Shown here: in pieces, positions 9,507 to 25,102 of the stretch | How the letters are laid out: each line of letters opens with the position of its first letter | Position numbering within the stretch: the stretch's first letter is position 1 | Origin: a virus | IMG/VR virus record: IMGVR_UViG_3300046001_004063 | Coordinates: 1-64,000 of that record | Direction: 5' to 3' (one strand) | DNA: 64,000 nucleotides | Made by a program: the position numbers and the translations under genes | The notes under the pieces: model-generated | Database searches by the model: none | What the model was told of the DNA's origin: nothing | The model's input: the letters and a program-made list of their open reading frames with translations, nothing else

Positions 9507-10139
9507 TTATTTGCCAGCAACTGCCAGTGCGGCACCTTTGTTAAAACTTGGTGACCAAGGGCTATTGCCCTGCTTCAGACCTTTGCGCTTGCTCCATTCG
9601 TATCCAGCACGATGCCCGCTACAGTCTTTGGTACACTGCGATCCTAAGAATGATAGTTCGTCTAAGTGATCTTTTAAAAATGTATCAGCAAACGCCTTGC
9701 ACAGTTCTTTGATACGTGGGTTGGTTGTGGTCTTGACATGAAACTTTTTGCGTGTTTCGTCCTGTGATGGATCTGCGTAGCCTGCATACACTTTGTGTAC
9801 ACCAGAACGATTGATCAAGTCTGTGCAACTTTCGCCATGGCGATCTGGCATGTCTTTTGTGCAAGGACTCAGCGTTGTGATTATGATGCTGCCTTCAGGA
9901 ATGCTGCCAAACTGTTCCATGTAAGCATCCATTGCCGCACGTTCTGCGTGTACACGTGACCCATCTTCGGCAGGATAGTTTATGGCACTTACACAAACAT
10001 CATTGGGATCCAACACTGCGGCAGCCACCATGCCTAGATCAGTATGGTCACGTTTGGCTCGAACGATTTCACTGCAGAGATCCACTAGAATGCGATCTAG
10101 TTTGTCTAGGTTCTTGATTCTGAAGTCACTTAACAGCAT
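9507..10139 (-). CDS. Zn-dependent nucleoside/nucleotide deaminase fused to a small Cys/His C-terminal module
   Basis: HAE ... TLSPC...C deaminase motifs; after LDE, a module with CTKDCSGHRAGYEW. Confidence 0.8.
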   Translation of the reverse strand: MLLSDFRIKNLDKLDRILVDLCSEIVRAKRDHTDLGMVAAAVLDPNDVCVSAINYPAEDGSRVHAERAAMDAYMEQFGSIPEGSIIITTLSPCTKDMPDRHGESCTDLINRSGVHKVYAGYADPSQDETRKKFHVKTTTNPRIKELCKAFADTFLKDHLDELSFLGSQCTKDCSGHRAGYEWSKRKGLKQGNSPWSPSFNKGAALAVAGK

Positions 10140-10216
10140 TATACCGGTGAGTAGGGATTGCGGAAACGATCGTATCCGTCATCTTCTGGATATACTGGAT
10201 ATTCGTTTGTGTTCAT
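10139..10216 (-). CDS. 25-aa micropeptide MNTNEYPVYPEDDGYDRFRNPYSPV (not in ORF track)
   Basis: Fills the gap exactly: ATGA overlap with the upstream stop and TAATG overlap with the downstream start. Confidence 0.6.
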   Translation of the reverse strand: MNTNEYPVYPEDDGYDRFRNPYSPV

Positions 10217-12309
10217 TTTTTAGGTTGCACCGCTACAGGAACGTTTCGGTACACACGTTTTTCGGGGTCGTACACAGTCTTTAATGGGCCTGCACCGGCC
10301 AACTGTTTAAGACGTGCCATGGCCGCGTCAAACTTGTCGGCATCCATGTCGCCAACTTTTTCTTGAGATTCATTAGCAGGTGCTCTGGTGTAAGTTCCGT
10401 TTGGGTTTAGTTCCACTTTGGTTGAGCCCATGCTTCTAGATCCAACAGCCATTGACGGCGCAGTGACAACTTCGCCTTGTCCGGTTGCTTGAGCATCTGA
10501 GTTCCATTTATATTGCTTGCCCTTGTACGTTAGTATCCGAGTATCAACATCGTACTGTGCCTGAGGTTTTGCAAGATTGATTGAAGACGTTGACTGAGTT
10601 GGTGCAGTATCAGTTGCCTGTTGAGTTGCAATCGGCTTGCCTGTTAAACGATTGATGCCAGGATCATCTCCAGGCATGACTCTAGCTTGTGCTCCGCCTG
10701 CGCCCAGTGCCATTGCACCTGCCAATGCCGCGCCACCTAATTTTTCTTTCCAGCCTTCCTCTAATTCAGGTTCTTGATTGGATTCAATGTAGTCAGCCGC
10801 TGTGTCAAGATAGTCAGCAGCCAGGGTAACTTTCATCTGCACCCACTCTGGCATGTTTTCGTTGTCATCCAACAGGCCGTCAAGTCTACGGGCCGCACGT
10901 ACAATGGTGTTCATTTGATCTCTAGCTTGGTCGCCTTCGTAATCGTATTCGCCAGAGTCAGCGTGGTCAACCGAGTATCCGTCGCTGTCTACATCGCCTT
11001 CTGCTAGGCCTTCGCCTAACGCATCTATCTCTGCTTGCATTGCAGCCGCAAGTTTAGGGTTCTTTGCCTTCATTGCATCAATCTTTGCCTGCATTGCTGT
11101 TTTCACTTGTGCAGGATCACCATTTGCTATTTTTACATTGCCGGGCGCAGTAGATGTTTGCGTAATGTTATTTGTAACGTTAGATGGATTTTGCCTTACG
11201 CCTTGTCGGACCAGTTCGGCATTCTGTGCATCTCGTTCAGCGGCAGCGGCTTGTGATTTTTGGCGGTTTGCTTGATACTCTACTTCACGGGCTGCCTCTT
11301 GTTTGTCCAACTCTTTTTGCCATTCAGGTGTAGGTTTACCGGTAACTCCGTCATACTTAGCACCCTTACCTGTTGCAGGATCATATGGTTTATCAAGCGT
11401 AGATGGTGCCTTCGTTGTAGGTTGCTGTTGTGCAGGTTGTGTTGCGGCTGGTTGTGCGGCAGTGGCCGCCGGCCGTTGTTGTGCAGTTTGTGCGGCGGCA
11501 GCTTGGTTAGCTTGTTTAGCTTGTTTAATCTGGTCAGGTTTCATGCCTGGAAATTTAGTTAGGTCTAAGGTACCACCTTTTGCCACTGCACCGGGTGCGG
11601 CTTTGGCAGCAACTTGCGGCTTGCCAGTGTTCGGATCATATCCTTGTGGAGCGGCTGCGATTCTTGCTTGTGTAGCCGCATCAGGGACTACTGGTGCCGG
11701 AGCGGCCGGAGTAGGTGCTGCCGCCGATTGTCCTGGCTTGGTAAACATACTTTTGGCTTTGTTGACCATGTTGCCTACAAAGCCTTCGTCCATGTCATCA
11801 TCTGCTACACCTTGTTGGTCAGCAGTTTTACGACGAGCAACATCGCTCAAGTGTGTGACCACGCCACGTGGATCTTTGGGCTGACCTTGCTTGTTTTTTT
11901 CGACTGGGTGCCATTCTGAGTCGTCTTTCCAACTCACAACTTTACCTTGTTTGTCCTTGACTTCTGTGTGGCCTTCTGCTACACCTTGTTGCTTATCGTT
12001 GGGGTTGGTAGTCAACATGAACTCTTTGTCTTTGTTGAACAGCTTGGCCTGCATTATACGTGCGGCTTTGTTTGCGGCTGCCTTATCTTGGAATGCATAA
12101 GGATTGCCTGATTTATCTTTGATCAGTTTGCCATTGAGGCGAATATACCAAGTATTTGATTGTTGATCAAGGCCGTGATTCTCATCATTGGCACCACCAT
12201 CTGCACGATATGCTTGTGAGTCTTTGCCAAAGCCGCTGGTGCTATTGGCAACGTCACGTTCGTATGCGTCACGTGGGTCTCTCATTTCATATAGGTCATT
12301 TAGGTTCAT
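10213..12309 (-). CDS. Multi-module putative internal virion polyprotein
   Basis: MNLNDLYE leader; modules separated by QQGVAEG, QQGVAD/MDEG, GLAEG, LEEG and ANES; low-complexity Ala/Pro/Gln linkers. Confidence 0.7.
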   Translation of the reverse strand: MNLNDLYEMRDPRDAYERDVANSTSGFGKDSQAYRADGGANDENHGLDQQSNTWYIRLNGKLIKDKSGNPYAFQDKAAANKAARIMQAKLFNKDKEFMLTTNPNDKQQGVAEGHTEVKDKQGKVVSWKDDSEWHPVEKNKQGQPKDPRGVVTHLSDVARRKTADQQGVADDDMDEGFVGNMVNKAKSMFTKPGQSAAAPTPAAPAPVVPDAATQARIAAAPQGYDPNTGKPQVAAKAAPGAVAKGGTLDLTKFPGMKPDQIKQAKQANQAAAAQTAQQRPAATAAQPAATQPAQQQPTTKAPSTLDKPYDPATGKGAKYDGVTGKPTPEWQKELDKQEAAREVEYQANRQKSQAAAAERDAQNAELVRQGVRQNPSNVTNNITQTSTAPGNVKIANGDPAQVKTAMQAKIDAMKAKNPKLAAAMQAEIDALGEGLAEGDVDSDGYSVDHADSGEYDYEGDQARDQMNTIVRAARRLDGLLDDNENMPEWVQMKVTLAADYLDTAADYIESNQEPELEEGWKEKLGGAALAGAMALGAGGAQARVMPGDDPGINRLTGKPIATQQATDTAPTQSTSSINLAKPQAQYDVDTRILTYKGKQYKWNSDAQATGQGEVVTAPSMAVGSRSMGSTKVELNPNGTYTRAPANESQEKVGDMDADKFDAAMARLKQLAGAGPLKTVYDPEKRVYRNVPVAVQPKK

Positions 12310-13007
12310 TATGCTTCCTCAATATAGTCGGCTGACAGATCTTGTTTACGCTGTCTAGCCATGTACATTTCCAATGCCATCTGTGCTTGGTCCAAGTTCT
12401 TAAAGCGGCTCTTCATTGCACGTCCACCATGACGAATTTCAAATCCCGCACGTTCGTCTCCGTATATTTCGCAAGCACGACCATCTTCTAATGCAACGGT
12501 TTTAACCGGTGCCGATTCAGCATAGGTTGGTTCTTGCACAGGTGTTGTGGGCATTTGTACAATGGGATTCTCGTCGGTGGGATCTTCTGCAACAGCAGTG
12601 ATTTGTTTGGCAATGATGCTGGCATCTTTCGCAGGCTTTTTACTGATGTCACGATCTACTTGAACCCGGTCTTTTAAGTCAGTGTCTTTCTTTTCGTCAG
12701 CAATACTGTCAAGGTAGTCAGCAAAGGACTTTTTAACCTTGTCTAACTTGTCTTCACTGGTCACTGCTTCTTCCAGTGCATCCTGTTCAGGTTCTTCACT
12801 TTCGTTAGAGCCAACCATGTAACCAGCACTGGGAGCTTTCTTATCAGGATCGCCACCCAGCACTGGACCTTGATCGGGCATTTTAAATAATGCAGGCATT
12901 TGTGGCACAGACTTTTGTTGTGCGTTCAATCCTTTAGTAACCGTATCTGGGGTGATAGTGCTTTCAATCAATGCAAGCCTCTGCATTATTGTGTAAATTT
13001 CATCCAT
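12309..13007 (-). CDS. Putative internal head protein
   Basis: Coupled ORF (TAATG); LIES/LEEA/VAED/YAES linkers; C-terminal DYIEEA. Confidence 0.6.
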   Translation of the reverse strand: MDEIYTIMQRLALIESTITPDTVTKGLNAQQKSVPQMPALFKMPDQGPVLGGDPDKKAPSAGYMVGSNESEEPEQDALEEAVTSEDKLDKVKKSFADYLDSIADEKKDTDLKDRVQVDRDISKKPAKDASIIAKQITAVAEDPTDENPIVQMPTTPVQEPTYAESAPVKTVALEDGRACEIYGDERAGFEIRHGGRAMKSRFKNLDQAQMALEMYMARQRKQDLSADYIEEA

Positions 13008-13008: not shown

Positions 13009-13449
13009 TTATGCCCTCGCGTCCTTCAAATAACTTTTCAGTTGCCACTGATACTTGCCGTGTTGGCTTTGGCGTTCTGCGGCAAAGTTTGCAATGTCTT
13101 CACGACCTTCGGCAGCGGCAGCTTCAAAAACTTGCCGGCTCATGCCAATCATGATCTGTGTATCTGCGAGTAATTCTTCCAGCATCAAACGAGCACGTGG
13201 CACTTTGGTTTGATCCGGTATCTGTGTTAGTTCTAAGAAGCGGCTGAGACTGCCGGGAGCATATTCATCTGTGGTACGAATGTATTCAGCAATGGGATCT
13301 ACTGCTGAATATGAATCTTCGTAGATGTTGGAAAAGAATTCGTGTAGTTCACCAAAGTCAGGTCCTTCTACATTCCAATGAAAATAGTGTGCCTTCAAAT
13401 AGTACGAAAACGTACTGGCCAAATAGGTCTTTAGTAAATCACTTAACAT
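13009..13449 (-). CDS. dps: Dps-family DNA-protection ferritin-like protein
   Basis: HYFHWNVEGPDFGELHEFF ... D.IAEYIR ... W.LKS signature. Confidence 0.92.
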   Translation of the reverse strand: MLSDLLKTYLASTFSYYLKAHYFHWNVEGPDFGELHEFFSNIYEDSYSAVDPIAEYIRTTDEYAPGSLSRFLELTQIPDQTKVPRARLMLEELLADTQIMIGMSRQVFEAAAAEGREDIANFAAERQSQHGKYQWQLKSYLKDARA

Positions 13450-13639
13450 TTGTTTTCCTTGCTTTCTTTCTCATACTTTTCGGTGTGTTTGGAAAAGGGT
13501 CATTGGTATATTTACCAGAAAAGAAACTATCGGGATTTCTTGCAATCATGCCACCCACGGGCATGGCCACTGTGGCAACGCTACCACTACTGGTGGCACC
13601 AACGGACGCATTTTCTTTGATAAATTCCTGAGCTCTCAT
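13439..13639 (-). CDS. Small putative internal head protein
   Basis: MRAQEFIKE leader followed by NASVGATSSGSVA and a basic tail. Confidence 0.65.
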   Translation of the reverse strand: MRAQEFIKENASVGATSSGSVATVAMPVGGMIARNPDSFFSGKYTNDPFPNTPKSMRKKARKTNVK

Positions 13640-13917
13640 GTGAGTATCTTTAGTAGATTTCCTTTGATTTTTCCGGGACCGTAATCCACACGCATATTCA
13701 AAACACGTATGGTGGCACCGGGAGAATTGACAAGTTCGTAACTGATTACATATTCGCCCGGCTCTGCTTCGATCTGTATCATTTCTTCAAGATATTCATC
13801 CCGCCAACGCCAGGTTCTTTCAGCAAATAATTCGTCATCTACGTAAACGCGGTAAACAGGTGGAGTTTCAGTCCAACTGCAATCAACGTCACATAGCACA
13901 CGAATAAACTGTTTCAT
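13636..13917 (-). CDS. Hypothetical protein
   Basis: 93 aa; TAAATA 4 nt before ATG; overlaps the next gene by ATGA. Confidence 0.7.
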   Translation of the reverse strand: MKQFIRVLCDVDCSWTETPPVYRVYVDDELFAERTWRWRDEYLEEMIQIEAEPGEYVISYELVNSPGATIRVLNMRVDYGPGKIKGNLLKILT

Positions 13918-13921
13918 ATTG

Positions 13922-13995
13922 TATTTAGCGTGATTAACTGTATAGTTAAATTAGCAATTTAACAGTGGGTATAAATCAGTAGTTCTACTTAAATA
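13922..13995. promoter_or_regulatory. Divergent pair of TAAATA late-type promoters
   Basis: TAAATA on minus (13922-13927) and plus (13990-13995), each 4 nt before an ATG; palindrome TTAACT-gtat-AGTTAA between them. Confidence 0.65.
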
Positions 13996-13999
13996 CTCA

Positions 14000-15331: not shown

Positions 15332-15520
15332 CTAACGCAGTTCTTTGATTGAGCCCACGTGCCAATCTTCGATGCGGTACTGTGCTTTGATCATTTGTCT
15401 AGCCACATGTGTGTTGGGAGCCCATACCACTGCATCGACCCAGCCCACATATCCAGGGTTCTGAACACGCACCTTGGCAGTCCATTGTTTTGCACCTCGG
15501 ATGATTTCTTTGGCTCGCAT
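15332..15520 (-). CDS. Small hypothetical protein (start moved to MRAKEII)
   Basis: TGATG coupling to the upstream ORF; MRAKEI leader like its neighbours. Confidence 0.6.
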   Translation of the reverse strand: MRAKEIIRGAKQWTAKVRVQNPGYVGWVDAVVWAPNTHVARQMIKAQYRIEDWHVGSIKELR

Positions 15521-16473
15521 CAGCAGTTCCAACGTCTACGAGCTTTGCAAATGGCCTTGTCCGGAGTCTTGGCACATGAAATATTGTGCATCTTCATTTG
15601 TCCGCGACTGCGGCTACAATAGCTCTTTCTACGCTTGCTGGCCTTGCTACCACGCTTTAGTTTGCTGGGTTTGGTAGTCACAGCAGTCTTTAGCTTTGAT
15701 CCTGGATTCTCTCTGCGATAAGCATTCACAGCCTTTTGACTCATGCCCGCAGTGCGATCTCGTTTGTTGGCCTTTTGCCAGTCTTCGTTCAGTTGCGAAG
15801 TCACAGCAAACACATACAGTTCATCTTCGGTTAGTGATTCTAAGTCCGCCCATACTGCTTCGGCGTCTACACCATTTTGTTCAGCAATACGATCGATAAT
15901 AGATTCAATAAGATCAAACTCTTCTGTCAAGCCTTCATCGGCATTGGGTTTGTCACGGAGTGGGCCGCCTGTGACCCAGGCATCGCAGGTTCTACGGCTG
16001 GCACATTTGAATTTTAAGAACTTACAATAACCCAGCTCACCTGCATCAATAACGCCGGCTGCATCCGCAGGAGAGTCACTGTCGATGCCTTGAGCAATGC
16101 AGTCCAAGGTTTCTTCTCGTATGTCAAACGCCGCACAGTTGCCGCATAGGCTTTGTTTGGCTTCCTCTGCTGAGTCCAAGTTCCACTCATCAACTTTTTT
16201 CATCCAGAACTTGGTGTTGGGCATGTCTGGGTTCAGCGGCCCATAGCCATAGTCATTGATGGCTTTTTGTCTGTTCTTGAGATTGAGTGTAATGTCTTGT
16301 GTAGCAGGAGGGCACTTGTTGTCAGAGTCTTCTGCTATGCTTTCAGCAGGCACACAGTTGTTTACACGTACTCCGCCCTTCATTTTAGTTTTAGGGTTGC
16401 CAATCTTTTTGCCTGTCCAGCACTTGGGATCCAAGCGGACTTTTTCTTCTACAATGAATTCGTTAGCTCTCAT
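15520..16473 (-). CDS. Multi-module putative internal virion protein with Cys-rich modules
   Basis: MRANEFIVEE leader; modules LDPKCW...NNCVP, CPPATQD...CGNC...C...C...C, and a basic EDWQKAN...CKARRRWNC; linkers IAED/GLTEE/LNED. Confidence 0.7.
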   Translation of the reverse strand: MRANEFIVEEKVRLDPKCWTGKKIGNPKTKMKGGVRVNNCVPAESIAEDSDNKCPPATQDITLNLKNRQKAINDYGYGPLNPDMPNTKFWMKKVDEWNLDSAEEAKQSLCGNCAAFDIREETLDCIAQGIDSDSPADAAGVIDAGELGYCKFLKFKCASRRTCDAWVTGGPLRDKPNADEGLTEEFDLIESIIDRIAEQNGVDAEAVWADLESLTEDELYVFAVTSQLNEDWQKANKRDRTAGMSQKAVNAYRRENPGSKLKTAVTTKPSKLKRGSKASKRRKSYCSRSRGQMKMHNISCAKTPDKAICKARRRWNC

Positions 16474-18335
16474 TTTTTCTTACCTCGTCGCATATTTAGT
16501 TGCCACTGTGCCATCCTGCGACGCTCGCCTGTGCTGGATTGAGCAATCTTTTCCAGTTGGCCCAAGGTGGCTTTTTTAGGAATCCCTACTCTGCGACTCA
16601 GCCCTTTGCGTCCAGGATTTTTACCATCCGCAAAGTTTTCATCTATCTCTTGTTCCCATACATTTTGTTCAGGACGATGCTTGTCCCAAAATCCAGCACC
16701 TGCATCAGTTTGCTGACCACTGCGGCGTATTTTATAGCCTTTGCTTTTTACATAGTCATACATTGTAGCGGCAATACCCTGACCTTGATAGCGTTCTTCT
16801 ACTTCTAAATCTTGCGGCATTAAGTAATCGCCTTCTTGAACAAATAATACATGTCCAAGTTCGCGGCCGCCTGGCATCATGGCCGTTATTAAAATTTCGT
16901 CATCTTCTTTTTCCAAGGAGATTTCTATTCCATTATAATGTTCCATGCCTTCCGCCACACCTTGTTCTACGCTTTCACTTTTGTATGTGGCTCCAGTGCA
17001 GACCCAAGCAGGGCCTGTGTATCCTTGAGGGAATGCCTTCAAATGCTGAATAGTTCTATGCCAACCTTCAATCAAATCATAACCGTTTGCTAATTTAGCA
17101 ACAATAATTGGTTCCGCACTCACACCCTTTTGCTGAATCATTTGTGATTGCAGTGCGTGTCTTTCAGCATCTTTTGGAACTTGAAAAGGATTAGAACTAC
17201 CACCTTCACGACTTTGAATCATACGCTGAGTTTTTGGTGTAAAGATATCTAGTGTGATGGGAATCTTAGTCAGTGTCCATTTACAATTACCAAAGTCTTG
17301 TTGTATTTCATCTAAAAAATCTTCTAAATCTTTTTGATTTTTATTACCTTTTGCCTTGGCATATAAAAAATCTCGTTGCACATATTCAGGCCATTGTGTT
17401 CTTGGAAATTTAGACTGAACCCAGGTCCAGAGTTGGTCACGATACTCACTTAGTGAGCCTTCCGCCACCGGTTGTTTTATTCTACTTAATTCGTATATAA
17501 CTTTGTTGCCAGTGTCTGCACGAAAAGCTCTGAAACCCCATGCTCTAGCATAACGCTGTACTAAACTATCATATAGTCTAGCTCTACTTTGTGCGTTTTG
17601 TCCTTGTTCAACTTCTTTACTGGCAGTAAAGGTTATTCTATTAGGAGTATACTTTTTAATAAACGTTTGTATAGCACTTAACACAGTGGCAAACACACGT
17701 TGTTGATCGCCTTCACCTGTGACTTCTTGGCTGTTGTTTCTATAGAATTCAACACTCCATGCTTCCTCTTTTGAATCTTTACTAAATCCCTTGTTAAACA
17801 TAATACTTAGAAAAGTTCCGTCATCTAATCGTGCTATTGCATCCACATCACCAAAGTCACCCTTTTCCCATCGAAGTAGTTCATACGGTTTATCAAATGC
17901 TTCTGTCAGACCCTGTGCAATTGCTTCACGGGCCTGGCGTTCATTCTCTACTTTGAATTTTTGTAAGGCTTGATTATCATTAATTTGTCTACGGTCCAAT
18001 TGTTGCCAAATTGACAAGTCAAATTTGAGAAGTTTTCGTTCTACTGCTTGTGCAAAACTAAGTTCATTATTACCTCGGCCTTGCCAATTAGGTTTCATGC
18101 CCCACACAACTGATACAGAATTATCGTAATCGTTGGACAGTGTAATTCTCATACGTTCGCCATAAAATACGTATGTACGTCCTTGCCAAGTAAAGTAAAG
18201 ATCACCATTACTTGTTTGTCCCGTGCTCCAGCCATGCTTTTTTTGCAGAGCACTAACTGCGGCTTGATCTGCATTTTCCGCCACACCTTGCCGAGTCTGT
18301 GCAACAACTTCTGTTATAAATTCACTAGCTCTCAT
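16470..18335 (-). CDS. Polyvalent putative internal virion protein: unknown modules + ParB/Srx-like + GNAT acetyltransferase
   Basis: MRASEFITE leader; EPIIV...LIEGWHR (ParB-like); EVEERYQGQGIAATMYD...AGAGFW (GNAT); linkers QGVAE, QGLTE, QPVAEG, QGVAEG, EIDE. Confidence 0.75.
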   Translation of the reverse strand: MRASEFITEVVAQTRQGVAENADQAAVSALQKKHGWSTGQTSNGDLYFTWQGRTYVFYGERMRITLSNDYDNSVSVVWGMKPNWQGRGNNELSFAQAVERKLLKFDLSIWQQLDRRQINDNQALQKFKVENERQAREAIAQGLTEAFDKPYELLRWEKGDFGDVDAIARLDDGTFLSIMFNKGFSKDSKEEAWSVEFYRNNSQEVTGEGDQQRVFATVLSAIQTFIKKYTPNRITFTASKEVEQGQNAQSRARLYDSLVQRYARAWGFRAFRADTGNKVIYELSRIKQPVAEGSLSEYRDQLWTWVQSKFPRTQWPEYVQRDFLYAKAKGNKNQKDLEDFLDEIQQDFGNCKWTLTKIPITLDIFTPKTQRMIQSREGGSSNPFQVPKDAERHALQSQMIQQKGVSAEPIIVAKLANGYDLIEGWHRTIQHLKAFPQGYTGPAWVCTGATYKSESVEQGVAEGMEHYNGIEISLEKEDDEILITAMMPGGRELGHVLFVQEGDYLMPQDLEVEERYQGQGIAATMYDYVKSKGYKIRRSGQQTDAGAGFWDKHRPEQNVWEQEIDENFADGKNPGRKGLSRRVGIPKKATLGQLEKIAQSSTGERRRMAQWQLNMRRGKKK

Positions 18336-18336: not shown

Positions 18337-21300
18337 TCAACTCACAATTGGTAGCACAGTAACATCTGCACCATGGCTGTAGCCATTGTCGGTCAACCAT
18401 TGTGTGGCCACACGGTTAGCATCACGCTGTTGATTGCCTATGCCGGAGAATCGATGCAGTTCATTGCCATCAGAATCTACAATCTTCCAAGCACCTGTAA
18501 ATGTACCTGGTGTGGCTCGTTGTTGTGCTAGGTCTGCGGTGGATCCTGCAGCAGGTGTAGATGCCGTTTCTTCTGCAGGTTCCACTTGATAGTTGCCATC
18601 CCAGTTGTATTCTCTAGCCCACACTGCGGCAAGTTCGTTGGCCTTGGCTCTGGTATTAACTGCAGGACGGAAACGATATACTTCGCGGCCTAACCCGTCA
18701 ATGATTTTCCATTGTCCAGTTGGGCTTGTGGCAGCACGACCTGCGGCTATTGGCATGTCTATATCAACAATTCCCACTCCACCGACGGTACGTATGCCAA
18801 ACATACGTTCAGCCTGACCTCGTTGTAGGCTATGTGGACCGTGTTCAATGTAATCATTCAGGCGAACCAATGCCTCTTCATCATTGGTGATTCCATCAGC
18901 ATCCTCTACTGAGTTGCCAGTTTGTTTGTTGTAAATTTCGTAGCGAACAGTTTTTGCAGATTGTTCATATGGACGCAATGGCTTTGCAGTCATATCATTA
19001 GCTGTGGCCCAATCTGGATATTCTGCACGACCTTTTTCAATGGCTTCTTCTTTGCTGGTAGCAACAACTTCAACACTGGCTCCATATCCAGGACGACCTA
19101 CACTCCACCAGTATTTTTCACCGCCTGTTGGATCTTTCTTCAACTTGCGTTCCAATTGTGCCTGCTTAACAAAACTACGCAAGGCAGCCGCAGGAATCTT
19201 GCCTGCTACGTATTCACTGAAGTACTTGATAGTGTCAGAACCTTTGTTGTCCTGTGTCAACAACTTGTACAGTTTCTTCAAGTATTCTTCGCGATACATT
19301 TCAGGATTCAGTGCCGCACTCATGGCCACTGTGAAACGCAACAGGGTGTTTTCAATTTGATCAAAGTTTTGATCCAACCAATCGCCGCCAGGGCTACGGA
19401 ATTCAATGTGTCCATCTTTGGTGTTGATACTGGTGTACTTGCTGGTCACACCCGAATGAATGGCTTTACTTGCCAAACTATCCAAGTTGCCTTTCATTTT
19501 GTTTAGTAACCGTTCTGCTTCGTCGGGCTTTTGCCGCACCTGATCACGTACCATTTTTATTGCTGGCTTGGCATAGGTATTGCCAGCACGTCCAAACAAG
19601 TCCAGTACATACTCATCGCCCATCAGCAGGGCTAACTTTACAAAGTCCAAGTTCTCTCTGCTGTAGTTGGGCACAGATATGTTGATGTGCAGGCCTGTTG
19701 AATCATTGGTGTAGCAACCATATACCTTGGCCCACTTTTTAACCTTGTTCAAGTCACTTAATATATCGTCAATGGGCAAGGGTGGGCTCACAAACTCCAG
19801 GCCTACATCATCGCTGTCATCGGCTTCTAAACTGCCATCAGGTTCCACAATATAATGTTGTGCAGTAGGGCTAGGTCTTGTTACCCCGCCACTGTGGTAG
19901 TTGCCGCTGGCTCGAACGTCACGTCCTATTGCATCTTGGAATTCGTTAGCAACATCTTCGATACTGGCTTCGCCACCACCCTGTTGTTCAAAATGGGGCC
20001 AACTCATGTTGTATTCACGTTCAATGTCTGACATGCGATTCAAATCTCGATCTTCTAGCCATTCTGATTCTAGGTCTGCATTCTGATTAAAATCTTCTTG
20101 TGCAGATTCACGTGCCGCATCGTACCAATAGTTGCCATAGCTTTCTTCTATTACTTTTTCTGTGGCATCGCGATATGCTTGTTTGTCTGCTACATATTCG
20201 CCGTCTACGCCGGGCTCTGTGCCTAGTATTTCTGCAATTTCATCTGCACTGGCGTTTTCTTTAAGGTAATTGTAGACAAATTCTGATTCGTCGCCGTCCC
20301 ATCGAGTATCAAACGACTCACTTAACCATTCGTAGTATTCATCCTGCATCCGGTCACGCAGTCTAGTGACATCGCCGCGGCTGTTGTAATCGCCATCGTA
20401 GAAGAAATCATAAGCCTCCTGTATGCTACTAACACCTTCATCGTAACTGTAATCTGCTTCCATTTGACCGTCGTCATCGCCGCCTTCAACATTGGGCACA
20501 ATCATTTCAAATTCCATGCCGGCAATGGCACCGGTCTTGGCAGCTTCGCGACGTAGGCTGCCTGTGCTCATGTTGATTTCAAACAGCATGTCATCAATGC
20601 CTTCGGCAATTAAATCTTCATCAGTTTTGGGTTGATGTTTGTCTGTGACATCTTCGCCACCTTCTACATCAGGATCGATGTCGTGTGTTTTTAGTCCCAG
20701 GCGTTTGAACTGTTTCAAGTAGCCCTGTTCTGCTTCATCGCTGGGGAAAACAACAACTGTTTGTGGTGGACCTTGATTGTAATTTTCCGGTTTGGCATCA
20801 TCCAAGTCAGATATGTCCATGCCCAACTGATACCAGTCAGTCAGGTCTTTAACATCAATTTTGGTTGTGCCTGCGGGAAATTGTGGTGGAAACTCTGGAC
20901 CTGTTGCTTCTTGATTGCCCAGTTCATCTTCACGTTCTCCGGGCACTTGACTCAAGGGTGTGGAGTTGTATCCATAACTTTTGTTGGACGTACGGCCAGT
21001 TTCTTTAAACTCGCGCAGTGCATTGGCCAAGCCGGTCATTAACAAGCCCGGATGTCCTTGACTGTCAGTTTTTAATCCCAACTTGTTTGCTTCTTTACCC
21101 ACTGCACCCGGACGCACATCTTGTGTCAGAGCCATGCTAAAGCGTGGGTCTCGAGCCTGCTTCTTTGTGGGAATGTATCCTGATGCTTCTGCTAACTCAT
21201 CTGCTTGCCCGGCAGCAAAATGTTCCGGGTGTAGTTTGGCATAGTCACGCATGAGTACGCCGGCACGAGCATTGGCTTCGTTTTCGTATGGACTGCCAGT

Positions 21301-22401
21301 TTCCCCTGCATCTGGTCCCATATCACTGCCATCACGTTCGTGTTGATGCTTGTGTGTGAGTTCATGAGCCACTGTGCGCAACACATCCATGATGTGTCGC
21401 TGACCCCAGGCCACTTCTAACATTTTTTCATCGTCGTTATACCGGCCAAATGTTTTGTGCCGCACAGGCCATTGTGGATCCTTGCGCAAGCGAATGCGTG
21501 GCATCTGTTCAATCGTTAATTCTGCAACACAAAACTCCACAAAGTCTGTAAGTATGTCTTCGTCTGATTTGGGTTCTTCATTCAAGAACATCTGTGTTGT
21601 GGGACTTACTCCGTCCCATGAAGCGCCAACATCTTCTGTGGCTTTGAATCCGTAGGTGAATCTAAATGGTTTATCAATTTCAATCGTGCGTTCTTTAAGA
21701 CTCAGTGCTCGATCTTTGGCAGCGGTTCTGGCATCATACAGTTTTTGTATCACACCCTGCGACCGCAACATCTTGTACGCAATGTTTTCTGGACCCAGTT
21801 CACCGTGCTGATCAAGACCAGCTTGACGCATCTTTTTAATCTTGGCAGCAGTGTTGGTCAAGCGTTTTAGACTGCCAGATTTTACTGCTGATTCAATGCG
21901 ATGTTTGATCACATCGTACTTGCTCTTTACCGCAGTGTCGTTTACTGTGGAACGTTTCTTAAGTGGAATGTTGATCCAGTCGTTGTTCAGCACACTGAAT
22001 ATGCCTTGACTGACTGCTGATTTGTTGGCGTTTTCCACATAGAGTTCTACATCGTAGCCACCAATTTTAATATTGTGTGTTTCGTTGTACTGAAACTTTT
22101 TAGCATCAAACAGCTCGCGATACACTTCACTCACATCTGCTTCAGGCAAATCAACTACCAGGTGCAGGTCAATATCACTATGTGGAGTATATGTATAACC
22201 AGCATTGCTGCCGGACAAGGTAATGTCTTTGAGGTTTAGATCTGTAAGTCCAAGACTCTGTTTAAAGTCTTCGGCAATTTGTAACAGTTTAGCCCGCACC
22301 TGTGGGCGCATTTTATTAGCCTGCCAGATACGTGGATTTAACTGTTCGTTGAATTTCACAGCGTCGGCGAGGTTATAGGAATCTAATTCAGAAATATTCA
22401 T
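18337..22401 (-). CDS. Polyvalent protein: Pol-beta-type nucleotidyltransferase + zincin-like peptidase + COOH-NH2 amidoligase + C-terminal repeats (start moved to 22401)
   Basis: GSNAGY...SDIDLH...VELYVE (NTase); AHELTH...ENEAN (HExxH); GMEFE...EPDGSL...GLEFVSP...TGLHINIS...IEFRSPGG (amidoligase); TAAATA before ATG 22401. Confidence 0.8.
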   Translation of the reverse strand: MNISELDSYNLADAVKFNEQLNPRIWQANKMRPQVRAKLLQIAEDFKQSLGLTDLNLKDITLSGSNAGYTYTPHSDIDLHLVVDLPEADVSEVYRELFDAKKFQYNETHNIKIGGYDVELYVENANKSAVSQGIFSVLNNDWINIPLKKRSTVNDTAVKSKYDVIKHRIESAVKSGSLKRLTNTAAKIKKMRQAGLDQHGELGPENIAYKMLRSQGVIQKLYDARTAAKDRALSLKERTIEIDKPFRFTYGFKATEDVGASWDGVSPTTQMFLNEEPKSDEDILTDFVEFCVAELTIEQMPRIRLRKDPQWPVRHKTFGRYNDDEKMLEVAWGQRHIMDVLRTVAHELTHKHQHERDGSDMGPDAGETGSPYENEANARAGVLMRDYAKLHPEHFAAGQADELAEASGYIPTKKQARDPRFSMALTQDVRPGAVGKEANKLGLKTDSQGHPGLLMTGLANALREFKETGRTSNKSYGYNSTPLSQVPGEREDELGNQEATGPEFPPQFPAGTTKIDVKDLTDWYQLGMDISDLDDAKPENYNQGPPQTVVVFPSDEAEQGYLKQFKRLGLKTHDIDPDVEGGEDVTDKHQPKTDEDLIAEGIDDMLFEINMSTGSLRREAAKTGAIAGMEFEMIVPNVEGGDDDGQMEADYSYDEGVSSIQEAYDFFYDGDYNSRGDVTRLRDRMQDEYYEWLSESFDTRWDGDESEFVYNYLKENASADEIAEILGTEPGVDGEYVADKQAYRDATEKVIEESYGNYWYDAARESAQEDFNQNADLESEWLEDRDLNRMSDIEREYNMSWPHFEQQGGGEASIEDVANEFQDAIGRDVRASGNYHSGGVTRPSPTAQHYIVEPDGSLEADDSDDVGLEFVSPPLPIDDILSDLNKVKKWAKVYGCYTNDSTGLHINISVPNYSRENLDFVKLALLMGDEYVLDLFGRAGNTYAKPAIKMVRDQVRQKPDEAERLLNKMKGNLDSLASKAIHSGVTSKYTSINTKDGHIEFRSPGGDWLDQNFDQIENTLLRFTVAMSAALNPEMYREEYLKKLYKLLTQDNKGSDTIKYFSEYVAGKIPAAALRSFVKQAQLERKLKKDPTGGEKYWWSVGRPGYGASVEVVATSKEEAIEKGRAEYPDWATANDMTAKPLRPYEQSAKTVRYEIYNKQTGNSVEDADGITNDEEALVRLNDYIEHGPHSLQRGQAERMFGIRTVGGVGIVDIDMPIAAGRAATSPTGQWKIIDGLGREVYRFRPAVNTRAKANELAAVWAREYNWDGNYQVEPAEETASTPAAGSTADLAQQRATPGTFTGAWKIVDSDGNELHRFSGIGNQQRDANRVATQWLTDNGYSHGADVTVLPIVS

Positions 22402-22423
22402 GATTGTAATATTTAGCGCAAAT

Positions 22424-22451
22424 AAAAAAGCCACTGGGTAAAGTGGCTTTT
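22424..22451. terminator. Intrinsic terminator (possibly bidirectional)
   Basis: AAAAAAGCCACT-gggtaa-AGTGGCTTTT hairpin with A/T tracts on both sides. Confidence 0.75.
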
Positions 22452-22474: not shown

Positions 22475-23380
22475 TTATTTCTTTTTACTGGCTTTTTTAC
22501 TCGATGCCAACACTTTAGTTTCGGCTGGCGCAGGCACGGCAGCGGCTCTAGCGGCAGCCTGTCTTGCTTCCACCATTGGCGTAACATCAGTGATCAGTTT
22601 CTCTTGTGCTTCGTGAGCAAATGTGTACGTGCCGGTGTGACGCAATAAAACACGTTTGTCAACCCAAACCCGACCGCCCAAGTCACGCCAGTTTTCACAG
22701 AATGTCCAGTCTTCCGAATAGTAGCGATTTTCACGCACTGCTGTGTCAAAGTAGGTTTTCATGTAGGGATTGAGTTCTACTGGCAGGCCAATGTCGTTGA
22801 TAAACGGCTTGGTTGCAGGGTGTGCATTCAACTTGTCAAACACATGACGCTTGACCAAGAAGAAGCCTGTGCCTGTTTTAGACACTTCTTGTAAGCCGTC
22901 AGCGCCTTCTTCTGCACCGTCAAATCCGTTGACGCACCACTTGATTGGAAGTGACTTCATTGGGTACAATCCGCCAATAACATCCACGTCACGATTTAAC
23001 ATGACCAACAGGTGCCATGGCTCCCAGCCAATGTCCGCATCAACGAACATCAAGTGTGTTGAATCAGGATTGGCCAAGAACTTGGCAACCATTGTATTAC
23101 GAGCACGACTGATCAAACTTTCGTTTGTGAGTGTTTCCATGGTCCAATCAATGCCCAATTGACGTGCAGTATTTGACCATTTGATGTAGCTCATAAACGT
23201 TGACTCAGTCAACATACCGCCATAACATGGCATACAAATGTGAACACGGGTGGTTTTCAAGTAGTCAACATTTACTTGAATTTGTTGTTGTTGCCCGCCC
23301 ACTTGTTGTGGTGTTGAGGGTGTTTCTGTGGTGGGTACAACATCTGGCATTTTGCCGGTTACGTTTTGTTCGTCAGCCAT
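22475..23380 (-). CDS. GT-A fold glycosyltransferase-like protein
   Basis: ICMPCYGG, ESLISRARN, LMFVDADI (DxD), GTGFFLVKR, SEDWTFC, H.G. Confidence 0.8.
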   Translation of the reverse strand: MADEQNVTGKMPDVVPTTETPSTPQQVGGQQQQIQVNVDYLKTTRVHICMPCYGGMLTESTFMSYIKWSNTARQLGIDWTMETLTNESLISRARNTMVAKFLANPDSTHLMFVDADIGWEPWHLLVMLNRDVDVIGGLYPMKSLPIKWCVNGFDGAEEGADGLQEVSKTGTGFFLVKRHVFDKLNAHPATKPFINDIGLPVELNPYMKTYFDTAVRENRYYSEDWTFCENWRDLGGRVWVDKRVLLRHTGTYTFAHEAQEKLITDVTPMVEARQAAARAAAVPAPAETKVLASSKKASKKK

Positions 23381-23443: not shown

Positions 23444-24334
23444 TTAAATTTCTACTGTGATTAATTCAAATTCGTCAGCACGATCTTCGTAGCCAACATA
23501 ACCACGTGGGTTACACACGATACGTGTAGAACCAATCCGGTAGTCAAACGGGTGATGTGTATGTCCGTGTGTCCACAGCCGGATCTGCGGATGATCCAGG
23601 ATATAATCATTCATATCACTACTGTAGCCGCCGTTCATGATTACATCATCTGCATAGCGTGGATGTGTGCTTAACTTGCTGGGACTATGATGTCCACAAA
23701 CTACAAACTTCTGTTCTGGGTTGCCTTCGATGATTTGCTGAATATAGCCTCGGAATTTTACATGTTCTTCCATGGCATCTTCGGGACTAAACTTTGCAGT
23801 ACGAGTCTTGAAGATGGGTTTTTCACGGTTGTCTACTCCGTTGATTTGCTCATAGTTCTTGTAGTTTACAACTCGGTTGGAGTTTTCAACACAGCGGAAG
23901 TCGTTCATCATGCTGGTCATGTGATACAGAGTTATTCCGTCACCGTTGTTCATGTCTGTCCACAGTGTGCCGCCAATAAAGGTAACATCACCAATGATTC
24001 GAATTTCTTTTTCCAACAGGTACACATTTGGCAAGTAACTGAGTACGTCTTTTAAGTGCGTTTCTGTGCGAGCAAAGTCACCGTTGTAGTGCTCGTGGTT
24101 GCCCATGATGTAAATCACATGCGGGAACTGTGCAGAACATCTTTGCATAAAATCGTGATAACGATTACTTCGGTAATCTGGACCCATGATTCCGTGTGGA
24201 TCACGTTGCGTTATATCCTTGGCCACAAGAATATCACCAGATAGAATCAATACTTCTGCGTTGTTGTTGTTGGTTAGATCTAAGTCACCAAATTCTAGGT
24301 GAACATCACTTGCTATTGCTATCTTCATACTCAA
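23444..24334 (-). CDS. Calcineurin-like metallophosphoesterase
   Basis: SDVHLE, GDI, GNHE, HH, HGHTH, NPRGY. Confidence 0.92.
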   Translation of the reverse strand: MSMKIAIASDVHLEFGDLDLTNNNNAEVLILSGDILVAKDITQRDPHGIMGPDYRSNRYHDFMQRCSAQFPHVIYIMGNHEHYNGDFARTETHLKDVLSYLPNVYLLEKEIRIIGDVTFIGGTLWTDMNNGDGITLYHMTSMMNDFRCVENSNRVVNYKNYEQINGVDNREKPIFKTRTAKFSPEDAMEEHVKFRGYIQQIIEGNPEQKFVVCGHHSPSKLSTHPRYADDVIMNGGYSSDMNDYILDHPQIRLWTHGHTHHPFDYRIGSTRIVCNPRGYVGYEDRADEFELITVEI

Positions 24335-24346
24335 TACTCCGAGCGA

Positions 24347-25102
24347 TTAGCGATTATATGTTTTTTCGTCTATATAATCAGGGTTGATGTGTGTAAAGTC
24401 AGCGTCAATGCTGTTTACTTGTTTTTCTAATTGTAACACATTCTCCAGCCACTCCACAACCTTGACATTGCCGATCTGACGCGATTCGCGAATATAATTT
24501 TGGGCTTGCTCAGAAATGCCCAATTTCTTATCAAACACTGCACGAATTGCCGAATCTGGTTGACCATACAAGTCAGCAATCACTTGATCTTTGTCACGGT
24601 CGTTGCCTTTGAGATACATTTTGCGTATTTCGGATGCAGAGTTAGCATCAACGCCATTTACTTTAAAGTTGATAGTGGGAGTGATCACAACGTAGCCATG
24701 TTTGGTCATGGGCTTTATTGACTTTTTATTCTTGGGCAATGGTTGTAGATAACCTAGGGAGCCATCTTTTTTAGGAGCAAAATTAAAACGTTCGGCATCC
24801 TTGGCGCTTACAGCAAATATCAGCACTGTATTTTTCTTTTCTTCATCAGGGATAGCACTGGTAATTTCAACAGCTTGATATGGATTTTTTACGTTGACAA
24901 TGCGACCAGCCGGAATACCCAGTTTAGTCATCATCATTACTTTATCAGAATAACTAAAAGGACTGGTAACAGGTGCTTGTACACCACTGGTAGCAATAAA
25001 AATGCTGTCGTTGCTAAACTGTTTGTTCAGCCAATCATAACTGGCCTTATGGCCTTTATGGAATGGGTGGAAACGTCCTGGGTAGATTACTAGATAATTC
25101 AT
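24347..25102 (-). CDS. HxGH (cytidylyltransferase-like) nucleotidyltransferase
   Basis: YPGRFHPFHKGH; SASEIR; C-terminal DYIDE. Confidence 0.8.
   Translation of the reverse strand: MNYLVIYPGRFHPFHKGHKASYDWLNKQFSNDSIFIATSGVQAPVTSPFSYSDKVMMMTKLGIPAGRIVNVKNPYQAVEITSAIPDEEKKNTVLIFAVSAKDAERFNFAPKKDGSLGYLQPLPKNKKSIKPMTKHGYVVITPTINFKVNGVDANSASEIRKMYLKGNDRDKDQVIADLYGQPDSAIRAVFDKKLGISEQAQNYIRESRQIGNVKVVEWLENVLQLEKQVNSIDADFTHINPDYIDEKTYNR

What the first reader, a model, noticed from the sequence alone, without database searches (positions are those of the whole stretch)
9507..25102. Array of capsid-targeted, protease-cleavable effector polyproteins
Seen: consecutive ORFs begin with near-identical leaders (MRASEFITE, MRANEFIVEE, MRAQEFIKE, MRAKEII), with looser variants MNLNDLYE, MLLSDF and MNISEL, and MKFNEFINE at 34933. 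Unrelated domains inside them are joined by aliphatic-X-E linkers (GVAE, PVAE, GLTE, GLAE, LDE, LEE, LNE). Known: T4 internal proteins carry a 10-aa capsid-targeting sequence (MKTYQEFIAE) removed by prohead protease gp21, which cuts after (L/I)-X-E. Inference: these are polyproteins packaged in the head, cut into separate enzymes (NTase, amidoligase, zincin, GNAT, ParB-like, deaminase) and injected as a host-takeover or anti-defence payload.
Basis: partly seen in the sequence, partly recalled or inferred. Interest (0 to 1): 0.85.

Follow-up and report, generated by a model that had tools for sequence, protein, structure and literature searches.

The report
Tagged, protease-jointed phage cargo polyproteins
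An uncultured giant relative of phage T4 starts several proteins with a T4-style "load me into the head" tag and joins unrelated enzyme modules with short peptides that fit the head protease's cutting rule. This looks like a plug-in system for packing swappable enzymes into the virion, but neither cutting nor packing has been measured.

Summary
The core observation holds. Three genes start MRAxEFIxE (p621, p317, p66). p680 starts MKFNEFINE, and p698 starts with a conserved variant, MNLNDLYE. MRAKEII lacks the final Glu; MLLSDF and MNISEL are not leaders.

Hundreds of metagenomic homologues carry the same leader in front of different modules. The same modules also occur inside other proteins. 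In 61% of 333 such internal copies a hydrophobic-x-Glu motif ends exactly at the module's first residue; other registers give 0-13%.

All window joints lie in low-confidence inter-domain segments of two AlphaFold models. Five complete 340-525 kb genomes with the leader all encode a T4 gp21-type head protease. Their capsid protein has an L-x-E site at the expected maturation point.

The leader keeps the T4 capsid-targeting residues known to matter (F, I, E). The commonest joint, QGVAE, is also kept as a fixed DNA word with a rare codon, which suggests in-frame recombination.

Packaging, cleavage and injection remain inferred. Several genes in 9507-25102 do not belong to the system. Module content matches published "polyvalent proteins".

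This scan has reported the same theme on other phage DNA. I found no paper describing it. Verdict: new variant of a known kind, interest about 0.7.

The parts
16470..18335 (-). p621, a five-module polyprotein: leader 1-9, spacer to E20, module A 21-145, DUF6934 146-292, ParB-like 293-462, GNAT 463-566, basic tail 567-621
18309..18335 (-). Leader MRASEFITE of p621
   Evidence: more than 50 of 120 homologues start MRAxEFIxE
18273..18290 (-). Joint QGVAE|N (E20). The homologue P0007 has MRAQEFIIE|NADQAAV at this module start
17898..17915 (-). Joint QGLTE|A (E145), in front of DUF6934
   Evidence: P0115 has MRATEFITE|AFDKPYELLRWEK. 64 of 64 internal copies have phi-x-E here; 35 of 35 spanning homologues. 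pLDDT below 50 at 134-146
17457..17474 (-). Joint QPVAE|G (E292), in front of the ParB-like module
16944..16964 (-). Joint QGVAE|GM (E462), in front of the GNAT module; DNA word GGTGTGGCGGAA
16635..16652 (-). Joint QEIDE|N (E566), in front of the basic C-terminal module NFADGKNPGRKG
   Evidence: L098 has MRINELFE|NFADGKNPGRKG. pLDDT below 50 at 553-569
15520..16473 (-). p317: leader MRANEFIVE (16447-16473), Cys-rich module, joint EGLTE|E (15919-15936), joint SQLNE|D (15781-15798), DUF6321 tail
15332..15520 (-). p62: MRAKEII start, leader-like but without the Glu at position 9. Translationally coupled to p317
13439..13639 (-). p66: leader MRAQEFIKE followed by NASVGATSSGSVATV, which resembles the capsid protein's cleavage site and mature N-terminus in this clade; basic tail
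10213..12309 (-). p698: variant leader MNLNDLYE (12286-12309); joints QGVAE|G (11971-11988), EGLAE|G (10996-11013), PELEE|G (10753-10770); long Ala/Pro/Gln-rich stretch
18337..22401 (-). p1365 (likely start ATG at 22401, 1354 aa): Pol-beta NTase 18-243, zincin 277-396 (HELTH at 21352-21366), conserved disordered region, small domain 508-576, amidoligase core. Joints DELAE|A (21184-21201), DLIAE|G (20599-20616), DMLFE|I (20575-20592). No MRA leader
9507..10139 (-). Deaminase (210 aa) with a decayed leader or none. C-terminal module starts after HLDE|L (9651-9668)
32891..34933 (-). p680: leader MKFNEFINE (34907-34933), joint GGLAE|E (34754-34771). Module 57-127 is homologous to the N-terminus of a protein annotated 'virion structural protein' in PBECO4

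Best explanation
The genes p621, p317, p66, p698 and p680, and probably p1365, encode head cargo of a giant (~340 kb) T4-superfamily phage.

Proposed mechanism (inferred):
1. A 9-residue N-terminal tag, MRAxEFIxE (variant M-x3-[DE]-L-[FY]-E), works like the T4 capsid targeting sequence and docks the protein on the scaffolding core of the prohead.
2. The phage's gp21-type serine protease, which cuts after hydrophobic-x-Glu, then removes the tag.
3. It also cuts at internal joints of the same form (QGVAE, PVAE, GLTE, GLAE, LNE, LDE, LFE).
4. Each module (GNAT, ParB-like, DUF6934, deaminase-type, basic tails, perhaps NTase, zincin and amidoligase) is thereby released with the same mature N-terminus, whichever protein carried it.
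5. The pieces leave with the DNA at infection.

The commonest joint is also kept as a fixed DNA word, CAA GGT GTG GCG GAA. This most likely serves as short homology for in-frame swapping, gain and loss of modules.

Shown here: tag conservation, exact-register equivalence of tag and joints, joints lying between folded domains, co-occurrence with a gp21-type protease, and DNA-level conservation of the joint.

Inferred only: docking, cleavage, packaging, injection, and what the enzymes do.
For: Leader.
- It is conserved in front of unrelated modules: more than 50 of 120 homologues; at least 119 IMG/VR contigs; 2-5 per complete genome, 0 in reversed controls.
- Its codons vary synonymously, so selection acts on the peptide.
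- The T4 record carries MKTYQEFIAE twice. In T4, residues 4 and 7 drive targeting and residues 8 and 10 drive processing (PMC9026906). F, I and E align with the leader here.
- T4 Alt is cut at ITE-6 and LTE-619 (PMC5694885).

Exact register.
- Of 333 internal copies of modules that elsewhere follow a leader, 202 have phi-x-E ending at position -1; other offsets give 0-13%.
- In 11 of the 22 module families with at least two internal copies, at least 75% of copies show this.
- At least 9 different modules follow the same DUF6934 C-terminus plus [VI]-x-E.
- The sites stay phi-x-E in spanning homologues while x varies.

Structure. All six p621 sites and all three p1365 sites fall in pLDDT<50 inter-domain segments.

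Protease and capsid.
- PF03420 and PF07068 are present in 5 of 5 complete genomes with leaders.
- The clade's capsid protein has ...YLKE|NASAG (LLAE|SSVG in G009) where T4 gp23 has its maturation region. p66 copies this site and its flank: 14 of 28 identical.

DNA word.
- GGTGTGGCGGAA is used in 46 of 77 distinct GVAE contexts, although GCG makes up only 8% of Ala codons.
- The word occurs 2-6 times in 4 of 5 complete genomes, with none in the reversed controls.

Module indel. P0011 equals p621 minus the ParB module, with junctions at the two VAE joints.
Against: - No proteomic or biochemical evidence exists, and no cultured phage with this leader was found.
- The window's own record lacks the protease and capsid genes because it is a 22% fragment.
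- p1365 has no canonical leader.
- Vibrio phage nt-1 has NLTE|AFDKP in a protein without a leader. So for DUF6934 the motif could be part of the domain.
- 39% of internal copies lack phi-x-E at the exact register, although many of these are offset by tandem sites.
- The strong DNA-level conservation of the main joint shows that part of its conservation is not due to the peptide.
- Val at P3 is not the classic T4 Leu/Ile.
- The TAAATA boxes upstream are too close to the start codons, and in one case lie inside conserved coding sequence, so they do not establish late expression.
Confidence: 0.6

Rival explanations
1. Recombination joints only. The leader and the QGVAE word are conserved because they give short homology for shuffling modules between genes and between co-infecting phages. 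The chains stay uncut and act as multi-domain (polyvalent) proteins.
For: - The GVAE joint is a fixed DNA word with a rare codon in 46 of 77 distinct contexts and recurs in 4 of 5 complete genomes.
- The ParB module indel relative to P0011 lies exactly between two such words.
- Some published polyvalent proteins are delivered uncut (PMC5512222).
Against: - Joints other than GVAE use mixed codons yet keep phi-x-E.
- Leader codons vary synonymously.
- The leader (EFIxE) and the linker (QGVAE) share no DNA homology, yet they sit in the same exact register before the same modules. That points to selection on the peptide.
Confidence: 0.15
2. Processing by the encoded zincin or another protease, not the head protease. 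The HExxH module of p1365, or a host enzyme, cuts the chains in the cytoplasm or after delivery, as proposed for polyvalent proteins. The leader has another role.
For: - p1365 carries an invariant HExxH zincin with a minigluzincin-like fold.
- Iyer et al. 2017 propose metallopeptidase (MPTase) autoprocessing.
- The p1365 family is near-universal in this clade.
Against: - The cut rule implied by the joints (Glu at P1, aliphatic at P3) is that of gp21-type proteases and matches the clade's capsid-protein site.
- The leader matches the T4 CTS determinants.
- Nothing links minigluzincins to Glu-specific cutting.
Confidence: 0.12
3. Structural coincidence. The phi-x-E is merely a common end of a linker helix or the start of the domains, and the MRAxEFIxE start is a translation or stability signal. 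There is no targeting and no cleavage.
For: - AlphaFold puts short helices over some joints.
- nt-1 has LTE before DUF6934 without a leader.
- p62 and the MKLNEFKK family have leader-like starts without the Glu.
Against: - The same rule holds for 28 of 40 unrelated module families, with a sharp register peak.
- Tandem sites occur, such as MRATEFIVE-GVTE|.
- The leader is restricted to genomes with a T4-type head.
Confidence: 0.08

Closest known systems
Phage T4 internal proteins IPI, IPII, IPIII and Alt: capsid targeting sequence (MKTYQEFIAE) removed by prohead protease gp21
   Same: - A short N-terminal tag with the E-F-I-x-E core.
- A Glu-specific cut after an aliphatic residue at P3.
- Diverse cargo behind one tag.
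- A T4-type head module (gp20/21/22/23 homologues) in related complete genomes.
   Different: - The tag is 9 residues, starts MRA, and belongs to a clade whose DNA polymerase is only 42-49% identical to the nearest cultured jumbo phages.
- The cargo is not single small basic proteins. It is chains of up to 5 or more modules with internal sites of the same form, and many modules are enzymes.
- The main joint is also a fixed DNA word.
- Nothing has been shown experimentally.
Polyvalent proteins of phages and conjugative elements (Iyer, Burroughs, Anand, de Souza, Aravind 2017, PMC5512222)
   Same: - Disparate domains in one polypeptide.
- The same hub domains: zincin MPTase, Pol-beta NTase, DdrB-type ParB, GNAT.
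- Predicted delivery with the DNA.
   Different: That paper has no occurrence of 'capsid targeting' or 'linker' and only one (reference-list) occurrence of 'prohead'; it proposes zincin autoprocessing. Here a T4-type tag and head-protease-type joints sit exactly at module borders.
Ejection and inner-body proteins of phiKZ, 201phi2-1 and SPN3US, processed at [SAG]-x-E by the S80 prohead protease
   Same: Many head-internal proteins have propeptides cut after Glu. Paralogues share N-terminal propeptides, and propeptides hold multiple sites (PMC5694885, PMC9026906).
   Different: A different protease family (S80 rather than S77) and a different phage lineage. In those phages cleavage removes propeptides; it is not described as separating strings of enzymes.
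Phage P1 Dar system (DarA, DdrB), head-incorporated anti-restriction proteins
   Same: Large multi-domain proteins (ParB, MPTase) that are processed and packed in the head.
   Different: No shared tag, a different head type, and no repeated joints.
Short conserved sequences that mediate gene shuffling in T4-type phages (promoter-stem-loop cassettes; CTS-coding homology at the IP locus) - recalled from my own knowledge, not checked here
   Same: Short conserved DNA at the borders of swappable units.
   Different: Here the word lies inside coding sequence, in frame, and also encodes the putative protease site.

Membership tests
T4-type CTS / internal-protein system | N-terminal tag of about 10 aa carrying the residues needed for targeting (aromatic, T4 position 7) and for processing (Ile 8, Glu 10) | tested here: met
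   M-R-A-x-E-F-I-x-E aligns with M-K-T-Y-Q-E-F-I-A-E. The determinants are taken from PMC9026906. This is sequence resemblance only.
T4-type CTS / internal-protein system | The phage encodes a gp21-type (Peptidase_S77) prohead protease and a T4-type scaffold and capsid | tested here: inconclusive
   Not found in the window's own 75-kb record, which is 22% complete. Present in 5 of 5 complete genomes that carry the leader and in the nearest cultured relatives.
T4-type CTS / internal-protein system | One tag in front of many unrelated cargo proteins | tested here: met
   114 post-leader sequence families among 278 distinct leader-bearing sequences.
T4-type CTS / internal-protein system | The tag is cleaved off after Glu by the prohead protease | not testable with these tools
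   Only indirect evidence: the capsid protein's L-x-E site and register equivalence.
T4-type CTS / internal-protein system | The protein is present inside the mature head and ejected | not testable with these tools
   Only a weak hint: p680 module 57-127 is homologous to the N-terminus of PBECO4 gp454, annotated 'virion structural protein'.
Polyvalent proteins (Iyer et al. 2017) | Two or more domains of disparate biochemistry in one phage polypeptide | tested here: met
   p1365: NTase + zincin + Amidoligase_2. p621: DUF6934 + ParB-like + GNAT.
Polyvalent proteins (Iyer et al. 2017) | Hub domains present: zincin MPTase, Pol-beta NTase, DdrB-type ParB, GNAT | tested here: met
   HExxH is invariant in 41 sequences. 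Folds match minigluzincins and CD-NTase/ANT and GNAT. ParB is PF02195 in homologues but only E 0.2 in the window.
phiKZ-type inner-body / ejection proteins | Processed by an S80 (gp175-type) protease in a phiKZ-like phage | tested here: not met
   The related complete genomes have S77 gp21-type protease and gp23-type capsid matches above Pfam cut-offs. The DNA polymerase is nearest to Atu_ph07 and Rak2-like T4-superfamily phages.

The most novel reading that the evidence does not exclude
A two-layer cargo grammar in uncultured giant T4-type phages.
1. A peptide tag addresses proteins to the prohead.
2. Head-protease joints release each module with the same mature end whatever chain carried it.
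3. The dominant joint is held as a fixed in-frame DNA word (CAAGGTGTGGCGGAA), so phages can swap, gain or lose cargo modules by short-homology recombination without breaking frame or processing.
4. p66, which copies the capsid protein's cleavage site, may be a substrate mimic that tunes the protease.
Probability: 0.35. Interest if true: 0.85.

Novelty: new variant of a known kind. Interest (0 to 1): 0.7.

Why it matters
If true, the T4 capsid-targeting principle would extend from a few small internal proteins of T-even phages to a large uncultured clade of giant phages, which would use it to pack strings of enzymes. It would give the 'polyvalent protein' hypothesis a concrete, testable loading and processing mechanism: a tag plus defined cut sites.

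It would also let cargo be predicted from sequence alone. Any protein in these phages that starts with the tag becomes a candidate injected effector, and each joint predicts a mature N-terminus that mass spectrometry can look for. The tag and joints could serve as parts for loading foreign proteins into T4-type capsids in laboratory phage work. The DNA-level joint would be a new example of coding sequence doubling as a recombination site.

Tried and rejected
I could not fetch the 350-kb contigs behind P0032 and P0076, so I reached complete genomes through a leader DNA-pattern scan instead.
- Megablast of the region against GenBank phages found nothing.
- No cultured phage carries the leader. 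It is absent from Vibrio phage 2.275.O, Atu_ph07 and Phosso even with a relaxed pattern. A conserved leader-bearing 129-aa protein has no tblastn hit among cultured phages.
- The protease and capsid genes were not found in the window's record or in four related 58-91 kb fragments.
- My first attempt to map leader-equivalent boundaries from ordinary BLAST HSP ends was too imprecise. I replaced it with post-leader 40-mers and HSP-end clustering.
- I considered TAAATA/CTAAATA as a late promoter. 13 of 26 minus-strand copies lie within 45 nt upstream of gene starts, or just inside the annotated ORF for p1365, including the tail-fibre-like genes and p1365, p317 and p93. However, the boxes sit only 4-25 nt from the ATG, and the one before p317 lies in a conserved coding peptide, so I do not rely on it.
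- I considered an internal Shine-Dalgarno reading of the joint word (AAGGTG...GGAAGG). I rejected it because only one joint is followed by a Met codon.
- Foldseek on the whole p621 model gave only weak E-values. I accept the GNAT assignment and make no other claim from it.
- I did not use the representative-library HMM search or the protein atlas, because a 9-residue tag is below their reach.


Full report
WHAT THE WINDOW IS

The window is the first 64 kb of a 75,097-bp IMG/VR record that CheckV rates 22% complete, which implies a genome of about 340 kb. Its family-B DNA polymerase is 42-49% identical to those of Sinorhizobium phage Phosso, Agrobacterium phage Atu_ph07, Vibrio phage 2.275.O and the Rak2/PBECO4-like jumbo phages. 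Each of the three relatives I tested (Phosso, Atu_ph07, Vibrio phage 2.275.O) encodes a T4 gp21-type prohead protease (PF03420). The record itself, and four related 58-91 kb fragments, do not reach the head genes.

ANATOMY OF THE REGION

All the relevant genes are on the minus strand.

| Gene | Coordinates | Start / notes |
|---|---|---|
| Deaminase (210 aa) | 9507-10139 | MLLSDF |
| p698 | 10213-12309 | MNLNDLYE |
| p232 | 12309-13007 | no leader |
| Dps/ferritin | 13009-13449 | unrelated |
| p66 | 13439-13639 | MRAQEFIKE |
| p93 | 13636-13917 | no leader |
| NUMOD3 homing endonuclease | 14669-15277 | unrelated |
| p62 | 15332-15520 | MRAKEII |
| p317 | 15520-16473 | MRANEFIVE |
| p621 | 16470-18335 | MRASEFITE |
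| p1365 | 18337-22434 | real start most likely the ATG at 22401, MNISELDSY |

- A plus-strand desaturase lies at 14000-14707.
- Three unrelated enzyme genes follow p1365: 22475-23380, a metallophosphoesterase at 23444-24334, and a cytidylyltransferase-like gene at 24347-25102.
- p1365, p621, p317 and p62 abut or overlap by 1-4 nt.
- p680 (32891-34933) starts MKFNEFINE.

IS THE LEADER REAL?

- MR..E[FILV][ILV] occurs four times in the six frames of the whole record, each time at one of these gene starts.
- Of 120 homologues of p621, more than 50 start MRAxEFIxE or a close variant, and very different sequences follow the leader.
- A DNA-pattern scan found the leader in at least 119 IMG/VR contigs.
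- Five complete or near-complete genomes of 340-525 kb each carry 2-5 strict copies on the coding strand, with none in reversed-pattern controls.
- Codons for Ala, Glu, Phe and Ile vary between copies, so the peptide is what is conserved.
- A second class, M-x3-[DE]-L-[FY]-E, covers p698 (MNLNDLYE in about 60 of 120 homologues) and others such as MHLFDLFE and MRINELFE.

- MNISEL is the conserved N-terminus of the NTase module.
- MLLSDF is leader-like only in its first six residues.
- MRAKEII and its family lack the final Glu.

ARE THE LINKERS REAL, AND DO THEY SIT AT MODULE BORDERS?

I took the 40 residues that follow each of 278 distinct leaders.

- Of 333 such internal copies, 202 (61%) have hydrophobic-x-Glu ending exactly one residue before the module. 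Every other offset from -8 to +8 gives 0-13%. The background rate is 2-4%.
- The rule holds in 28 of 40 module families. It reaches 64/64 for DUF6934, 30/30 for a YRDR module and 9/9 for a WSQKYK module.

Window examples, with the homologue on the left and the window protein on the right:
- P0115 MRATEFITE|AFDKPYELLRWEK and p621 ...AQGLTE|AFDKPYELLRWEK.
- P0007 MRAQEFIIE|NADQAAV and p621 ...QGVAE|NADQAAV.
- L098 MRINELFE|NFADGKNPGRKG and p621 ...QEIDE|NFADGKNPGRKG.
- L139 ...KQGVAE|EKQRLDPKCW and p317 MRANEFIVE|EKVRLDPKCW.

Further support:
- After the same DUF6934 C-terminus plus [VI]-x-E, at least nine different modules follow in different proteins.
- Homologues whose alignment runs across a joint keep phi and Glu while the middle residue changes: VAE, VTE, VNE, INE, LDE and so on.
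- HSP ends cluster at the joints in p621, p1365 and p698.

Two AlphaFold2 models were built with homologue alignments.
- In p621 (mean pLDDT 67.8), the segments with pLDDT below 50 are 1-36, 79-88, 134-146, 202-209, 288-297, 379-386, 455-462 and 553-569. All six proposed sites (9, 20, 145, 292, 462, 566) lie in them.
- In p1365 residues 1-620, the folded parts are 18-243, 277-396 and 508-576. Sites 405, 600 and 608 lie in low-confidence segments.

No joint falls inside a confidently folded domain.

Fold searches support a GNAT fold in p621. In p1365 they support a Pol-beta nucleotidyltransferase (CD-NTase and ANT-like) and a minigluzincin-like zincin. The HExxH motif is invariant in 41 homologues, as is the Glu of the LFE|IN joint in front of the amidoligase core.

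LINK TO A T4-TYPE HEAD PROTEASE

- All five complete genomes with the leader encode Peptidase_S77 (gp21) and Gp23.
- In G006 the order is portal, small proteins, protease, scaffold, capsid protein.
- The capsid protein reads ...RKYLKE|NASAGSTVSGNIATLNRV (LLAE|SSVG in G009), which aligns with the N-terminal maturation region of T4 gp23.
- p66 repeats this site and the following arm: EFIKE|NASVGATSSGSVATV, 14 of 28 identical, pairwise E 6e-6.
- The T4 record carries MKTYQEFIAE twice.

Published work supplies the rest:
- All T4 internal head proteins bind the core through the CTS, and gp21 removes it (PMC5694885).
- Alt is cut at ITE-6 and LTE-619 (PMC5694885).
- Targeting depends mainly on CTS residues 4 and 7, and processing on residues 8 and 10. 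Asp at position 10 blocks processing but not targeting (PMC9026906).
- The diverse T-even internal proteins share only the CTS (PMC3012670).

The leader here keeps F, I and E in the same spacing.

A SECOND LAYER: THE JOINT AS A DNA WORD

Two first-reader notes on this genome (e1-6031723, e1-6031735) suggested DNA-level conservation of the joint, and I tested it.

- In the window, the three VAE joints of p621 all use GTG GCG GAA. Yet GCG is only 8% of Ala codons and GTG 30% of Val codons.
- Across related contigs, 46 of 77 distinct GVAE contexts (68 different downstream modules) use exactly GGTGTGGCGGAA, and the preceding Gln is CAA in 51 of 52.
- The word occurs 2-6 times in four of five complete genomes, against about 0.1 expected and none in the reversed controls.
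- Other joint variants (PVAE, GLTE, GLAE, GLFE) use mixed codons.
- P0011 is about 90% identical to p621 but goes straight from ...IKQPVAE to the GNAT module. It therefore lacks exactly the ParB module that the two VAE joints flank in the window.

The simplest reading is that the canonical joint doubles as short homology for in-frame module exchange. The wider phi-x-E rule, which also covers the leader that shares no DNA with the joint, reflects selection on the peptide.

MOST LIKELY MECHANISM (confidence about 0.6)

Tagged proteins dock on the prohead core. The gp21-type protease removes the tag and cuts the joints. The separated modules stay in the head and enter the host with the DNA.

The module set (NTase, zincin, amidoligase, ParB-like, GNAT, deaminase-type) is that of the 'polyvalent proteins' of Iyer et al. 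2017. Those authors predicted injection and zincin autoprocessing. Their text contains neither 'capsid targeting' nor 'linker', and 'prohead' only once, in the reference list.

What the enzymes do in the host is unknown. Take-over or counter-defence is a reasonable guess from domain content only.

WEAK POINTS

- There is no experimental evidence, no cultured member of the clade, and no head genes on the window's own record.
- p1365 lacks the tag.
- Vibrio phage nt-1 has NLTE|AFDKP in an untagged protein.
- Val rather than Leu/Ile sits at P3 in the main joint.
- Part of the joint's conservation is clearly at the nucleotide level.
- About half the genes inside 9507-25102 are unrelated to the system.

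RELATED MODULES IN CULTURED PHAGES

- The DUF6321 tail of p317 is about 70% identical to the C-termini of multi-module proteins in T4-like cyanophages, encoded next to the large terminase gene. P-TIM68 AIR93437 starts MDNSNSINE|SLRDWFGK..., and S-CREM2 gp137 has ...SSMNE|DWQKANRKD.
- p680 residues 57-127 match the N-terminus of PBECO4 gp454, annotated 'virion structural protein'.

These are leads for testing in cultured systems.

PRIOR NOTES AND LITERATURE

This scan has already reported the same theme on other phage DNA (e1-5841484, e1-5756021, e1-5685155, e1-5783521 and others). None of those reports has experimental support either. In the searchable paper library I found the T4 CTS concept, Glu-specific prohead proteases of giant phages, and polyvalent proteins. 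I found no description of tagged, protease-jointed enzyme polyproteins.

Noticed in passing
window 13439-13639 (-), compared with L184:10301-11518: p66 (66 aa, basic tail) carries the leader and then copies the capsid protein's putative maturation site and mature N-terminal arm (14 of 28 identical). The family is conserved in related genomes. It may be a substrate mimic or a small internal protein.
   Followed up: partly
window 16944-16964, 17457-17474, 18273-18290; G005-G009: The joint QGVAE is kept as the DNA word (CAA)GGTGTGGCGGAA with a rare Ala codon, at dozens of different module junctions and in 4 of 5 complete genomes.
   Followed up: yes
window, minus strand: 13927, 16498, 22415, 23410, 25115, 35429, 52648, 58644, 59549 and others: TAAATA/CTAAATA boxes lie 10-42 nt upstream of many gene starts. 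13 of the 26 minus-strand copies are near a start, including tail-fibre-like genes. The spacing would give near-leaderless mRNAs. It is unclear whether this is a late promoter.
   Followed up: partly
window 13636-15520 compared with L164 (G007:63551-66577): The block p62 - p93 - p66 - p232 is syntenic in related genomes. In the window a NUMOD3/GIY-YIG-type homing endonuclease (14669-15277) and a convergent fatty-acid desaturase (14000-14707, overlapping it by 39 nt) are inserted between p62 and p93, and a Dps/ferritin gene sits between p66 and p232.
   Followed up: partly
window 24347-25102 (-): This cytidylyltransferase-like (HxGH, NMNAT-like) gene stands alone without a tag. The same module occurs behind variant leaders elsewhere, for example MYANELFE|APRRTIVLYAGRFQPFHKGH in L007 and MLLRELFE|GGGKHITFCFGRMNPPTIGH in L083.
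   Followed up: partly
L190:2581-3501 (Vibrio phage nt-1 ORF252): A cultured KVP40-like phage has a DUF6934 module preceded by ...NLTE|AFDKP inside an untagged 306-aa protein. This could serve as a test case for gp21-type cutting.
   Followed up: no
L195:481-1764 (P-TIM68 AIR93437) and L196:304-1776 (S-CREM2 gp137): T4-like cyanophages encode multi-module proteins next to the large terminase gene. They share the WF..KW module and the DUF6321 tail with the window's proteins, and the DUF6321 tail follows M-N-E in S-CREM2 (T-N-E in P-TIM68); P-TIM68 also starts with a leader-like ...INE.
   Followed up: partly
window 32891-34933 (-): p680 combines the leader, a module shared with PBECO4 'virion structural protein' gp454, long Ala/Gly-rich hydrophobic stretches and a PAAPAAPAAP repeat. 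It follows a spanin-like or signal-peptide gene (34930-35403).
   Followed up: partly
window 26769-29885 (-): The phage encodes a ClpA/B-like AAA+ chaperone (760 aa, read from its sequence only; no family search was run on it) and a full DnaJ (J domain plus C-terminal domain).
   Followed up: no
G005-G009 (e.g. L174:1501-2255, L166, L169, L162): Every complete genome has a conserved tandem pair of leader-bearing proteins of about 124-131 aa. One is basic (mature pI about 9). They are the best candidates for true 'internal proteins' of the clade. The window's record does not reach them.
   Followed up: partly
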